Source: Escherichia coli
GTDB lineage: Bacteria; Pseudomonadota; Gammaproteobacteria; Enterobacterales; Enterobacteriaceae
Length of the DNA: 64,000 nt
Direction: 5' to 3' (one strand)
Assembly: GCF_050920415.1 (NCBI RefSeq)
Contig: NZ_CP169309.1
In this document: in pieces, positions 55,601-58,600 of the stretch
Numbering within the stretch: the stretch's first letter is position 1
Layout of the letters: every line of letters begins with the position of its first letter
Made by a program: the position numbers

Positions 55601-58600
55601 AAGTGCCGTGCGTTTTTATCGCCAAACAAGATAAAGAAAAGGGGACCGTTACGCTCTCCAGTACGTTGCCCGGTACTTTCCGCTGGAAGGCGAAAGCCGC
55701 CCCTTATGATGACAGTAACTATGTTGACGTAACGTTCCTGGGTTCTGACATCGGCGGGCTGAATGCTTTTATCTACCGCGTTGGTGCAGCTAAGCTCGTC
55801 AATCTTATCGGCAACAAAGAACCGTTGCCTCTCAATAGCCGCTATCGCTTTGTGCTGTGGCGCGACGCTAACAAAGACGGCGTGTTCCAGCTTTCTGAGA
55901 AGCTCACTGACGACGAGATGAAACAGTATGACTATCAGTGGGAATTCACGGGGAATAGCGTAAATGGCAATACCGGTGCGCAAACCAATACCACGAACGT
56001 CGATATAGAGATTCCGGCAACCAACAAGGACGCGGCAGCAAAGTTTAGTGCCCAGGTAACCGATGGCGTGCAGGGATACGGTTTGCAGGTCAATTACAGC
56101 AAGAAATAGGGTCGGCGCCATGGCTGATCGGGCCACCGCTGAATATTAATCAAGGAGAGTGTTTATGAAACCTGATATGAAACGTGGCCTGACAAAAGTC
56201 GCGCTCGCGTTGATGCTGGCTGGATACTGTGCCGTACCAGCCGCTATGGCGGAAGATGCCGCCTGGGTCGCCAGTGGAACGACCGCTGAATTCGAGGGGA
56301 CTATACCCTGGCTCTATCGCGAAGGGGGGAATGCCACGATTAACTCGGAAGATGCGGATCACATTAAAGTGACGTCTGATGGTAAAGGGACCCGTCCTGA
56401 AGGTAGCGAGACGGATAAACGCCTTTACTCAGGGGATACCATCACGCTGGGTTGGGATATCGGCGATACCGAAGGGGATATTGATGATGGTCCCGCAGGC
56501 ATTGATGCGAAAACGACAGCCACTATCAAATGGTACAGTTACAGCGATAATGCGGGTGGCGGTAAAACGGAGCTGACCGCAGCGGCAGGCAAGACGAGTT
56601 ATAAACTCACTGATGACGAACGTGGGCGTTATATCGGTGTTGAAATCCAGCCCATCACCCAGACCGGTAATCCTTTCCAGGGAACGTCGCTGACTCTGCT
56701 GGATATTTCAACGGCCAGCGGTGGCGGCAGCGATACGGACAATGTCGATCCCGGCCCGGTTGTGAACCAGAATCTGAAAGTTGCCATCTTCGAGAAAGGC
56801 ACCACTACCAACCTTATCGGTGGTAATACGGCCATTGCGCTTAACAAAACGTATGTGGCCAAACTGTACTCGGATGAAAACCAGAACGGTAAATACGACG
56901 CAGGTACGGATATGGACGTTACCGCTAACTATGACTTTGCATGGGTCTTTAACGGTAACAGTAAACAACTCGGTGCGGCGGGCGGTATTGCTAATGCCAG
57001 CTTCGATAACAATGACATTGTTATCCCGCAAACTAACGAAGAAGCAAGAACCAGCCTTAACGGTAGTGACCGTAATGGTAAGAGTGGTCTTGCGATCCCG
57101 GCAAACGGCGACGGCGTTCAGGGCTATACGCTGTCAATTATTTACAAACACCACTAATGCGCACAACAGCATTCCCATACGGGGATGCTGTTTTCCGCCT
57201 GTTTTGCTTAGCGACGCGTTAAGCAAAACAGGTTGATGTTTTGTTTATCATGCTGGAGTTTTCTACATGTCGGTATGTCTGAAACCTGGGAAAATCATTA
57301 TGCTTCTGGGCATGTTGGCAGCTTTTATGCTGTCTGACTTTGCACGGGCAGGGGCGGAATGGCAGACATATCCTGATTCTACAGGCGAGTTTAACGGAAC
57401 CGTTCCTTTTGCCGACAGCGCCAGCGTACCCGTCTATCAGGGCAGTGTTCAGCTTAATCCTGCTGAATCTCATGATGTCGGGTTTACTGCTAAACCGAAT
57501 GAATTTAGCGTTGACGATGACGCTGCTAACCTGATTGTTGCTAATCCTCAGGACAATGAAGGCGACCAGTTTTCCACACCACCTGCGCTGCGCTGGGAAA
57601 ATCAAACACCCCCTACCGTCAGCCTGATGTGGGCCGATGCCGCCACGCCCGATGTGCCCCTTAACCCACAACCCATTGCTAACCGTAGCTTTTGCGCTCA
57701 GGGGCTGGCCGGACGCTCGCTGGTGGCCTGGCCGCAGATTGATGCGCAGCAAACCCTCCCACTGCTCTACCTGCTTACCTCGACCGGGTATCCCTATGCG
57801 GGGACGGTGGCGCTGGTGGACCAGAAAGTGACCCTGAACATCGCGCCCGCGCAGGGCGATTTAATCTCGGTGAGCGCCAGTGGTTATAACGAAACGATCG
57901 CGGCGGCAAAAACCACCGTTGGCGACACCATCACGCTCACCGTCACCACTAAAGATTGTCAGGGCAACGTCGCGGGTAATATTCCGTTTATTATCAAACG
58001 TAAAGATGCTGAAAATCGCCAGGGGGCGGTGAATAATAGTGCGCCGGTGATACTGGATAGCACCGAGTTAACGACGACGGATACCGAATACCATGGCACT
58101 TCTGATGCCAACGGCACGGCCACCATCACGGTGAGCCAACCGAATGGCCCTGGCGTCAAAACGCCATTGGTGGTCAGCATCTCCGGTTTTGCGCAAACCA
58201 GCGAAACCGCGGTGATTTTTACGGTACTCACCAGCCCGGACGTGGCGCAGGCTACGATGTGGGGCCATATGGCGGAGACGGTAGAAGCCCACGGTTACAC
58301 CTTCAGTCGACCAAAGCTGGCGGCAGAAGTCAGCAATGAAAGCGCCACGGTCGTCGATCATAACGAAACCTGGTCCACCTTCACCTGGAGCGGCGCAGAT
58401 AGCCACTGCACCGTGCTGCCCGGCATGCGCCACTTCGGCGCGCTGGCGACCGTTATCCCCACGTCGGTGCAGACAGTCCTTGGCTGGCCGATGCAGGGGG
58501 ATTATTACTGGTCATCGCTGGCGGGCACCACCGGGCACCACCGGGCAGCACCATGCGGCGGATGTTTCAAACCGTGGTGAAATGCAAAAGCCGGATAGCA

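What the first reader, a model, noticed from the sequence alone, without database searches (positions are those of the whole stretch)
55777..57157. SinH-like C-terminus and the SinI-like protein share a homologous domain
The last ~110 aa of the inverse autotransporter (NLIGNKEPLPLNSRYRFVLWRDANKDGVFQ...YDYQWEFTGNS...DIEIPATNKD...DGVQGYGLQVNY) align with the last ~125 aa of the downstream protein (NLIGGNTAIALNKTYVAKLYSDENQNGKYD...YDFAWVFNGNS...DIVIPQTNEE...DGVQGYTLSIIY). The downstream gene may therefore be a detached, duplicated copy of the adhesin tip domain, perhaps a soluble competitor or partner.
Basis: seen in the sequence. Interest (0 to 1): 0.45.

Follow-up and report, generated by a model that had tools for sequence, protein, structure and literature searches.

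The report
SinH tip domain repeated in SinI
The last ~120 residues of the E. coli outer-membrane adhesin SinH and of the small exported protein SinI encoded just downstream are true, anciently duplicated copies of one Ig-like domain, which is real but was already reported for this gene pair in 2003.

Summary
SinH residues 614-730 and SinI residues 203-330 are homologous: BLASTP E=3e-11, z=18.6 against shuffles, profile-profile E=1.7e-19.

The genes are sinH and sinI of an E. coli CS54/ila-type island, followed by a frameshifted ratA-like gene. The similarity is already in the literature (Kingsley 2003 as cited by Heinz 2016; Goh 2019). NCBI's family name, "SinI family autotransporter-associated protein", records the link between the two genes.

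What I add:
- The shared unit is SinH Ig-like domain 3, the proposed receptor-binding domain and "SinH-3" vaccine antigen.
- The duplication is old. SinH and SinI copies form separate clades in an NJ tree.
- The pairing held in every locus with readable flanks: 18 of 18 enterobacterial loci, and four of five distant ones by HMM.
- The family is narrow, with 59 hits among 1.84 billion representative proteins.
- The domain is absent from the complete RatA-like gene.
- SinI is more than a detached tip. It has a signal peptide and a ~150-residue N-terminal module of its own.
- The mature N-terminus of SinI shares a ~21-residue motif with RatA-like proteins.

The most likely role is a Sec-exported partner of SinH, as ZirS is for ZirT. 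That role is inferred, not shown.

The parts
53935..56109 (+). sinH, an intimin-like inverse autotransporter. RefSeq start is 53935 (724 aa); the longest ORF starts at 53917 (730 aa), and that numbering is used in this report.
   Evidence: NCBIfam NF033423 equivalog scores 1467 bits against a cutoff of 999. RefSeq annotation of the 100% identical E. coli record agrees.
54121..54942 (+). SinH beta-barrel translocation domain (residues 69-342).
   Evidence: Pfam IAT_beta PF11924, E=9e-105. PDB invasin 4e1t and intimin 4e1s barrels match at E=6e-72 and 6e-65.
54943..55755 (+). SinH passenger Ig-like domains 1-2 (residues 343-613). These are not shared with SinI.
   Evidence: hhalign finds no SinI match outside the C-terminal domain. 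The three-Ig-domain passenger model comes from Xing 2023, PMC9937491. My own AF2 model of this part was poor.
55756..56106 (+). SinH C-terminal domain (residues 614-730). This is the shared domain, equivalent to Ig-like domain 3, the 'RBD' or 'SinH-3' antigen.
   Evidence: Xing 2023 defines SinH-3 as residues 602-724 in 724-aa numbering.
56152..56157 (+). Shine-Dalgarno-like AAGGAG, 7 nt upstream of the sinI ATG. The sinH-sinI gap is 55 nt with no terminator-like site.
   Evidence: Sequence read directly; terminator scan.
56165..57157 (+). sinI, a SinI family autotransporter-associated protein (330 aa).
   Evidence: NF040711 scores 376 bits against a cutoff of 165. RefSeq annotation agrees.
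56165..56251 (+). SinI Sec signal peptide (residues 1-29, with an AMA|E cleavage site). There is no canonical lipobox.
   Evidence: Read from the sequence and from family alignment A2. Cleavage is inferred from the AxA rule.
56252..56323 (+). SinI mature N-terminal motif (EDAAWVASGTTAEFEGTIPWLYRE), shared with RatA-like proteins.
   Evidence: hhalign aligns 21 columns, P=2e-5. A motif HMM ranks RatA-like N-termini directly after the SinI proteins.
56252..56698 (+). SinI N-terminal module (residues 30-178): beta-rich, with a second half resembling an AIR9 A9-like Ig domain. It is absent from SinH.
   Evidence: AF2 pLDDT is about 60-83. Weak Pfam IG_AIR9 hit and Foldseek A9-like hits. The module HMM hits only partner proteins.
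56699..56770 (+). SinI disordered Gly/Asp-rich linker (residues 179-202).
   Evidence: AF2 pLDDT is below 50; alignment A2.
56771..57154 (+). SinI C-terminal domain (residues 203-330), the paralogue of the SinH tip domain.
   Evidence: AF2 pLDDT is about 85, with six beta strands and one helix.
57197..57243 (+). Terminator-like hairpin (17-bp stem) with a T-rich tail, between sinI and the ratA-like gene.
   Evidence: This is a consensus scan only.
57267..64000 (+). ratA-like giant repeat adhesin gene. It runs off the window (to about 65364 in the full record) and is frameshifted here. It does not contain the shared domain.
   Evidence: NF011844 and NF011843 N-terminal matches. RefSeq marks it 'frameshifted'. 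No domain hit. 10-bp duplication.
57351..57416 (+). RatA-like mature N-terminal motif ([22 protein letters not shown]), matching the SinI N-terminal motif.

Best explanation
This is the sinH-sinI gene pair of an E. coli CS54/ila-type adhesin island.

SinH is an intimin-like inverse autotransporter: an N-terminal 12-strand-type barrel with a passenger of Ig-like domains. SinI is a Sec-exported protein with no barrel and no lipid anchor. The C-terminal ~120 residues of each protein are ancient paralogues of one Ig-like beta-sandwich domain. Its conserved motifs are NL(I/L), Y..L(W/Y).D.N.(D/N)G, T..Y.Y.W.F.G.S, P.TN.EA and DGVQG(Y/F).L.(I/V).Y. In SinH this domain is the membrane-distal tip, the proposed receptor-binding domain.

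The most likely mechanism is inferred by analogy with ZirT/ZirS/ZirU. SinI would be made from the same transcript as SinH and enter the periplasm through Sec. It would then act as an accessory subunit or client of SinH. That means it reaches, or is held at, the cell surface in a SinH-dependent way, and it either pairs with or doubles the SinH tip through the shared domain.

SinI and the downstream RatA-like adhesin share a mature N-terminal motif. This suggests a common recognition tag for the same handling step.

Shown: gene identity, homology and its limits, the age of the duplication, conserved synteny, the signal peptide, and the modular anatomy.

Inferred: co-transcription in this strain, export across the outer membrane, any SinH-SinI contact, and the function of the N-terminal motif.
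For: Identity: NF033423 at 1467 bits and NF040711 at 376 bits. The window matches an annotated E. coli chromosome at 100%.

Homology.

Operon-like layout:
- The intergenic gap is 55 nt, with an AAGGAG before the sinI ATG.
- No terminator-like site lies between the genes, and a 17-bp hairpin follows sinI.
- Co-transcription is reported in the review PMC12525524.

Conserved partnership:
- In 18 of 18 enterobacterial loci with enough upstream flank, an inverse autotransporter ending in the domain directly precedes a SinI-like gene (N-module plus domain). A RatA-like gene follows in 20 of 20.
- In five more distant loci (L002, L025-L028), 1-2 barrel-less genes carrying N-module plus domain follow an inverse autotransporter (IAT) gene. 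The IAT carries the domain at its extreme C-terminus in four of them by HMM; in L025 the match was below threshold and seen only by eye.

Possible co-evolution: in distant lineages an IAT tip groups with a partner's domain (48-49% identity in L002/L026, 44% in L025).

Likely exposure to selection: the SinH tip and SinI are the fastest-evolving parts of the locus. Against other Escherichia loci, the SinH middle region is 93% identical, the SinH tip 74%, the SinI N-module 37%, and the SinI C-domain 46-50%.

Shared N-terminal tag with RatA-like proteins.

Precedent: ZirS is secreted in a ZirT-dependent way (PMC2270342). Heinz 2016 and Goh 2019 propose the same for SinH/SinI.
Against: - None of the papers I could read reports an experiment on SinI localisation or binding.
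- Goh 2019 found that IatB (the E. coli SinH orthologue) mediates biofilm formation without the downstream gene.
- Heinz 2016 notes that the barrel pore of an inverse autotransporter is blocked once its own linker occupies it, so how a second protein would pass is unresolved.
- Nearly identical SinH middle regions occur with deeply different SinI classes. A very specific SinH-SinI fit is therefore not obviously required.
- One distant SinI-like gene (L003) has no autotransporter nearby.
- My SinH passenger model was too poor (pLDDT 45) to compare the two domains in 3D.
Confidence: 0.5

Rival explanations
1. SinI is a released soluble competitor or decoy. It leaves the cell and its tip-like domain binds the same host ligand as SinH, which would modulate adhesion. 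Alternatively it absorbs antibodies raised against the SinH tip.
For: SinI has the same domain with 19 invariant columns, including polar ones (N, D, T, S, Q) that could form a shared site. It has a signal peptide and no anchor. Both SinI and the SinH tip evolve fast. The SinH tip is immunogenic and protective as SinH-3 (PMC9937491).
Against: No route across the outer membrane independent of SinH is evident. The paralogues are only 30-45% identical and carry lineage-specific loop insertions: 4 residues in SinH and 5-12 residues in SinI. An identical ligand or epitope is therefore doubtful. This reading does not explain the conserved 150-residue N-module or the motif shared with RatA-like proteins.
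Confidence: 0.15
2. SinI is a periplasmic chaperone or assembly factor. It uses its Ig-like domain to hold the last-exported SinH tip (or RatA-like repeats) in an export-competent state.
For: SinI is periplasm-targeted and co-encoded with SinH. Heinz 2016 notes that IgSF domains often act as periplasmic chaperones.
Against: SinI is the most divergent gene in the locus, with two classes at about 37-50% identity beside 93%-identical SinH middle regions. That is unusual for a dedicated chaperone. Its N-terminal motif is shared with the putative client RatA-like protein, which makes SinI look like a client itself. IatB functions without the downstream gene.
Confidence: 0.1
3. There is no functional coupling. 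The shared domain is only a relic of an old duplication, and SinI now acts independently of SinH.
For: The duplication is old. One distant homologue stands alone. IatB's biofilm phenotype does not depend on the downstream gene.
Against: Gene order and domain pairing are conserved across every enterobacterial locus with readable flanks and across divergent lineages. An IAT tip and a partner domain group together in distant lineages.
Confidence: 0.15
4. The similarity is due to chance or biased composition.
For: None.
Against: z=18.6 against shuffles, composition-adjusted BLASTP E=3e-11, and reciprocal family-HMM and profile-profile hits.
Confidence: 0.01

Closest known systems
SinH (SivH) / SinI (SivI) of the Salmonella enterica CS54 island
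   Same: The gene order sinH-sinI-ratA is the same. The NCBIfam families are the same (NF033423, NF040711). The SinH-SinI similarity was documented by Kingsley 2003, as cited in Heinz 2016.
   Different: The window is E. coli. Its SinI belongs to a 330-aa class only about 42-46% identical to the Salmonella/Citrobacter 320-aa class. That class carries a 7-12-residue longer loop before the DGVQG motif.
IatB / EcSMS35_2660 of E. coli (Goh 2019, PMC6714894)
   Same: It is the same E. coli locus type. IatB is the SinH orthologue, and the downstream barrel-less gene was noted there.
   Different: In the passage I read, that paper gives no domain boundaries or phylogeny. It showed that IatB's biofilm activity does not depend on the downstream gene.
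ZirT / ZirS / ZirU of Salmonella (Gal-Mor 2008, PMC2270342; Prehna 2012 as cited by Heinz 2016)
   Same: An inverse-autotransporter-type barrel protein is followed by Sec-exported barrel-less proteins that share Ig-like domains with its passenger. ZirS secretion depends on ZirT.
   Different: I did not test sequence relationship to ZirS or ZirU, because their sequences were not in hand. Profiles of both SinI modules find no PDB chain at E<0.3. No secretion data exist for SinI.
Intimin and invasin
   Same: The barrel domain is homologous (E=6e-72 and 6e-65 to the solved barrels). The passenger is built of Ig-like domains with a distal binding domain.
   Different: No Pfam family for an intimin/invasin C-type-lectin-like tip or a LysM domain matches SinH. 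Intimin and invasin are not described as having a co-encoded protein that repeats their tip (my own knowledge, not tested here).
Classical two-partner secretion (TpsB/TpsA, e.g. FhaC/FHA)
   Same: Conceptually similar: an outer-membrane barrel plus a co-encoded exported partner with a conserved N-terminal recognition element. This is the model in Heinz 2016.
   Different: SinH has an IAT_beta barrel, not an Omp85/POTRA barrel. SinI has no Pfam TPS domain.

Membership tests
SinI family autotransporter-associated protein (NCBIfam NF040711) | Full-length match to the family HMM above the curated cutoff (165 bits). | tested here: met
   376.4 bits, E=1.2e-112, residues 6-327 against model positions 1-299.
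SinH intimin-like inverse autotransporter (NCBIfam NF033423, equivalog) | Full-length match above the curated cutoff (999 bits). | tested here: met
   1467.4 bits, residues 7-730 against model positions 1-730.
Inverse autotransporters (type Ve) | [quoted passage not shown] | tested here: met
   PF11924 at residues 69-342, E=9e-105. PDB invasin and intimin barrels match.
ZirTSU-like inverse autotransporter with co-encoded partner | A barrel-less gene lies immediately downstream on the same strand with no intervening terminator. | tested here: met
   The gap is 55 nt, an SD-like site is present, and the only hairpin follows sinI. The arrangement is conserved in 18 of 18 enterobacterial loci, and 1-2 barrel-less partner genes follow the IAT gene in 5 of 5 distant loci.
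ZirTSU-like inverse autotransporter with co-encoded partner | The partner has a Sec signal peptide and shares an Ig-like domain with the barrel protein's passenger. | tested here: met
   Signal peptide read from alignment A2. Shared domain shown.
ZirTSU-like inverse autotransporter with co-encoded partner | Secretion or surface display of the partner depends on the barrel protein. | not testable with these tools
   This needs a secretion or localisation assay in wild type and a sinH deletion.
ZirTSU-like inverse autotransporter with co-encoded partner | Sequence homology of the partner to ZirS or ZirU. | not tested
   ZirS and ZirU sequences were not retrieved. SinI profiles find no PDB chain at a significant E-value.
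Classical two-partner secretion (TpsA/TpsB) | An Omp85-type barrel with POTRA domains, and a TPS domain in the partner. | tested here: not met
   Pfam finds only IAT_beta in SinH and no TPS or haemagglutination-activity domain in SinI.
Intimin/invasin receptor-binding tip | A C-type-lectin-like C-terminal domain (Pfam Intimin_C or Invasin_D3-type). | tested here: not met

The most novel reading that the evidence does not exclude
SinH, SinI and the RatA-like giant adhesin would form one three-part surface machine. The two barrel-less proteins would carry a common mature N-terminal address motif (consensus LKSGxWQ.....T..I.GT.P) that routes or docks them to the SinH inverse autotransporter. SinI's copy of the SinH tip domain would pair with, or multiply, the receptor-binding tip. 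If so, SinH-3-based ExPEC vaccines would be aimed at a tip that has a co-expressed, fast-evolving paralogue. I did not see the N-terminal motif described in the papers I could read. Heinz 2016 calls Rat-like N-termini 'highly divergent'.
Probability: 0.25. Interest if true: 0.55.

Novelty: already known. Interest (0 to 1): 0.25.

Why it matters
SinH is a fitness factor and a leading vaccine antigen for extraintestinal E. coli. The antigen fragment 'SinH-3' is essentially the domain discussed here (PMC9937491). That paper never mentions SinI.

A co-transcribed exported protein carries a 30-45% identical copy of this domain. That bears on whether the tip works alone, whether SinI competes or cooperates with it, and whether antibodies cross-react.

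More generally, the strict pairing of an inverse autotransporter with partners that repeat its tip is the best available natural test case for a debated idea. The idea is that type Ve barrels can serve co-encoded proteins, as proposed for ZirT. The basic similarity, however, is textbook-level for this locus and not a discovery.

Tried and rejected
- AF2 of the SinH passenger (residues 339-730, 19-sequence alignment) gave mean pLDDT 45. It was too poor for a 3D superposition of the two domains or for a fold search. Only the order of secondary-structure elements agrees with the SinI model.
- Sequence searches of the PDB with SinI and with profiles of both modules found nothing.
- Giant proteins that scored in the 1.84-billion-protein search (P0175, P0190, P0205, P0207 and others) match only short motifs, summed over repeats: a YxW..NG Ig strand and a DxDxDG-like loop. 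I rejected them as family members.
- I looked for a second shared domain between SinH and SinI, prompted by the junction of the natural fusion P0153. hhalign shows none.
- I looked for the domain in the RatA-like gene. The result was negative.
- A search with the SinI N-module profile for new architectures found only SinI-family proteins.
- A lipoprotein reading of the invariant 'AGYC' in the SinI signal peptide was rejected. There is no canonical lipobox, and distant homologues lack the Cys.
- Kingsley 2003 and Shea 2022 are not held in the library. What they say is cited second-hand.
- One literature query was too loose and returned noise.
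Full report

Yes. The window holds a 730-codon ORF at 53917-56109 and a 330-codon ORF at 56165-57157, both on the + strand.
- BLASTP aligns SinH 628-727 with SinI 215-327 at 33% identity, E=3e-11 with composition adjustment.
- Smith-Waterman score for the two tails is 134 against 32.0 +/- 5.5 in 2000 shuffles, z=18.6.
- Each protein hits the C-terminal end of the other's curated NCBIfam model, at E=1.6e-22 and 1.6e-12.
- A profile-profile comparison of the two families gives a single hit, SinI 203-330 to SinH 614-730, at 99.2% probability and E=1.7e-19.
- An alignment of 20 domain copies has 19 invariant columns.

The homology is limited to this one domain.

**2. What are the genes?**

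The window is E. coli chromosome. It is 100% identical over 4.9 kb to strain MFDS1022581 (NZ_CP169399.1), between der and a zinc-ribbon gene on one side and xseA on the other.

The first protein is SinH. It matches NF033423 (equivalog) at 1467 bits, has Pfam IAT_beta at residues 69-342, and its barrel is homologous to the solved invasin and intimin barrels. The second is a 'SinI family autotransporter-associated protein' (NF040711, 376 bits).

The third gene is a RatA-like repeat adhesin. It runs off the window and is annotated as frameshifted. This is the E. coli version of the Salmonella CS54 island (sinH-sinI-ratA), also called the ila or iatB locus.

The sinH-sinI gap is 55 nt, with AAGGAG 7 nt before the ATG and no terminator-like site. 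A 17-bp hairpin with a T-rich tail follows sinI. The review PMC12525524 states that sinH and sinI are co-transcribed.

**3. Anatomy of the shared domain**

In SinH the domain is the last of three passenger Ig-like domains. In the 724-aa numbering of Xing 2023 it is residues 602-724. That paper calls it the putative receptor-binding domain and used it as the vaccine antigen 'SinH-3'. The paper does not mention SinI.

The conserved motifs are:
- NL(I/L)
- Y..L(W/Y).D.N.(D/N)G.(Y/F), a DxNxDG-type loop
- T..Y.Y.W.F.G.S
- P.TN.EA
- DGVQG(Y/F).L.(I/V).Y

SinH copies carry a 4-residue insertion. SinI copies carry 5-12 extra residues before DGVQG.

AF2 of SinI from 39 sequences gave mean pLDDT 72.9. 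The C-domain scored about 85, with six strands and one helix. My SinH passenger model was poor, with pLDDT 45. It did show the same order of strands and helix in the aligned region.

**4. SinI is more than a detached tip**

SinI has four parts:
- a signal peptide, residues 1-29, with an AMA|E cleavage site and no canonical lipobox
- a beta-rich N-terminal module, residues 30-178
- a disordered Gly/Asp linker, residues 179-202
- the shared C-terminal domain

The N-module is absent from SinH. It accompanies the C-domain in nearly all SinI-like proteins, including distant ones.

In two distant loci (L002, L026) a third gene carries the N-module attached to a Big_2 domain and a lectin-like tip. 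The third gene of L027 has a similar C-terminal region but shows only the short x-I-x-G-T-x-P N-terminal motif, not the module. The N-module therefore looks like the constant part of barrel-less proteins that carry adhesin-type tips.

**5. Evolution and distribution**

Within Enterobacteriaceae, the SinH and SinI copies of the domain form reciprocally monophyletic clades in an NJ tree. Mean identity is 69% within the SinH copies, 60% within the SinI copies, and 38% between them (range 30-45%). The duplication therefore predates the divergence of these genera, and there is no sign of gene conversion.

A scan of one genome per species returned 20 loci from Escherichia, Citrobacter, Pseudocitrobacter, Superficieibacter and Leminorella.
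- Every locus with enough upstream flank (18 of 18) has an inverse autotransporter ending in the domain, directly followed by SinI.
- All 20 have a RatA-like gene next.

Five more distant loci were examined, including Serratia fonticola and metagenomic contigs.
- The autotransporter carries the domain at its very end in four of them by HMM. In L025 the match was below threshold and seen only by eye.
- One or two downstream barrel-less genes carry N-module plus domain in all five.
- In these lineages an IAT tip groups with a partner's domain (48-49% identity in L002/L026, 44% in L025). This suggests repeated duplication or co-evolution, but the NJ tree rests on about 110 residues and is only suggestive.

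The family is narrow. A profile search of 1.84 billion representative proteins gives 59 hits at E<=1e-3 and 26 at E<=1e-10. The long multi-repeat hits among them are motif-level only. One distant homologue (L003) has no autotransporter nearby.

**6. RatA-like protein**

The complete gene is available in L001. An unfiltered HMM search of its six-frame translation finds nothing at E<=10, and tblastn finds nothing.

SinI and RatA-like proteins do share something else: a ~21-residue motif directly after the signal-peptide cleavage site.
- SinI consensus is NLKSGQWQ.....TGTIQGTVPW. The window has EDAAWVASGTTAEFEGTIPW.
- RatA-like consensus is ALKSGTWQ.....TDAINGTVP. The window has [20 protein letters not shown].
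- hhalign gives P=2e-5 over 21 columns.
- A 24-column motif HMM was searched against 2229 ORF pieces from the 22 loci searched. After the SinI proteins themselves it ranks RatA-like N-termini next, always at the same position, and 10 of them score E<0.03.

I did not find this motif described in the papers I could read.

**7. Divergence along the locus**

Compared with other Escherichia loci (L010, L013, L023), amino-acid identity is as follows:

| Region | Identity |
|---|---|
| SinH barrel | 84-88% |
| SinH middle | 93% |
| SinH tip domain | 74% |
| SinI N-module | 37% |
| SinI C-domain | 46-50% |
| RatA-like N-terminal region | 67-73% |

The tip and SinI are thus the fastest-evolving parts. 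SinI exists in two deep classes: 330 aa, as in the window, and about 320 aa, as in Salmonella and Citrobacter. The window class (>=90% DNA identity) occurs in 753 of 5426 complete E. coli genomes. I read this pattern as selection on exposed parts. That is an inference.

**8. How it most likely works**

Shown: an exported, unanchored two-module protein is encoded with, and universally linked to, an inverse autotransporter whose distal domain it duplicates.

Inferred, with confidence about 0.5: SinI is a partner or client of SinH, as ZirS and ZirU are for ZirT. ZirS secretion depends on ZirT (PMC2270342). Heinz 2016 and Goh 2019 propose the same for SinH/SinI. Under this model the shared domain would mediate pairing with, or duplication of, the SinH tip, and the N-terminal motif would be a common handling tag for SinI and RatA-like proteins.

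Against this model:
- There are no data on SinI itself.
- IatB's biofilm activity does not need the downstream gene.
- The barrel pore is occupied by its own linker.
- SinI class varies beside nearly constant SinH middle regions.

The rivals are a soluble competitor or decoy (0.15), a periplasmic chaperone (0.1), no functional coupling (0.15), and chance (rejected).

**9. Comparison with what is known, and novelty**

Membership in the SinH and SinI families is met on curated cutoffs. The ZirTSU-like system features that can be read from sequence are met, but the defining functional feature, barrel-dependent export, cannot be tested here. Classical TPS features and an intimin/invasin lectin-type tip were tested and not met.

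The SinH-SinI similarity was reported by Kingsley 2003, as cited in Heinz 2016, and repeated for E. coli by Goh 2019. NCBI's family name records the association of SinI with the autotransporter. The finding is therefore real but already known.

- exact domain limits
- the equivalence of the domain with the SinH-3 antigen
- the age of the duplication
- strict conservation of the pairing
- the negative RatA result
- the SinI/RatA-like N-terminal motif

**10. Limits**

There is no 3D comparison of the two domains and no complex prediction. Trees are NJ on short domains. Kingsley 2003 and Shea 2022 could not be read.

Noticed in passing
window 54330-64000 (breakpoint about 54330-54530, inside the sinH barrel-coding region): From about 54527 to the window end, sinH (the 3' three-quarters), sinI and the ratA-like gene are 96-100% identical in DNA to Pseudocitrobacter vendiensis CPO20170097T (L005). 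The flanking core genes (48843-53730) are only 79.7% identical and the 5' part of sinH is below 85%. This is a mosaic allele and implies recent exchange between genera; the direction is unresolved. Only 2 of 5426 complete E. coli genomes match the 4.9-kb region at >=99%, and 3 match sinI alone at >=99%.
   Followed up: partly
window 58522-58531: A 10-bp tandem duplication (CGGGCACCAC x2), relative to the intact P. vendiensis gene, frameshifts the ratA-like gene at about codon 419. This explains the RefSeq 'frameshifted' flag.
   Followed up: yes
window 56252-56323 and 57351-57416: The mature N-termini of SinI and the RatA-like protein share a ~21-residue motif (consensus LKSGxWQ.....T..I.GT.P) directly after the signal-peptide cleavage site. 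The match is conserved across 20 loci; hhalign gives P=2e-5. It may be a common recognition tag, and I did not see it described in the papers read.
   Followed up: partly
protein P0153 (E. coli, 631 aa, one contig of 234,610 bp): This is a natural in-frame SinH::SinI fusion. Residues 1-449 are SinH (82% to P0170) and residues 424-631 are SinI (92% to P0042 residues 112-321). The two are joined at a short similar stretch (W.YS.D). It may be a real deletion or an assembly artefact.
   Followed up: partly
L002 4782-5885, L026 9977-11044, L027 10112-11440: In distant loci the third gene after the autotransporter and the SinI-like gene carries a Big_2/Invasin_D4/lectin-like C-terminal region in place of a RatA-like giant. 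In L002 and L026 it also has the SinI N-module. The L027 gene has only the short N-terminal G-T-x-P motif.
   Followed up: partly
L025 8001-8893 and 9001-9876; L028 7940-8893 and 9001-9885: Serratia fonticola and one metagenomic lineage carry two SinI-like paralogues downstream of the autotransporter. One copy in L025 is split into a 170-aa N-module ORF and a 120-aa C-domain ORF. The first paralogue's domain (GDQGF type) groups with the autotransporter tip.
   Followed up: partly
window 56165-57157 compared with loci L009-L024: SinI is the most divergent gene of the island. It falls into two deep allelic classes (about 37% identity in the N-module and 40-51% in the C-domain) beside SinH middle regions that are 93% identical in other Escherichia loci. 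The SinH tip (74%) also diverges more than the rest of SinH.
   Followed up: partly
window 56219-56230 (SinI residues 19-22): 'AGYC' within the SinI signal peptide is invariant across 39 SinI proteins, which is unusual for a signal-peptide core. It is not a canonical lipobox, and more distant homologues keep 'AGY' or 'IGY' without the Cys.
   Followed up: no
SinH residues 651-660 (window about 55867-55896); SinI residues 237-246 (about 56873-56902): A conserved D-x-N-x-(D/N)-G-x-(Y/F)-(D/Q) loop in both paralogues resembles DxDxDG-type calcium-binding loops. Weak Pfam GEVED and DUF5057 hits and motif-level hits in giant repeat proteins fall on this region. Calcium binding is a guess.
   Followed up: no
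L003 9001-10074 (CP050253.1): A distant SinI-like protein (P0188, 357 aa, domain E=4.7e-16) sits alone among housekeeping genes with no inverse autotransporter within 9 kb. This is an exception to the pairing rule.
   Followed up: no
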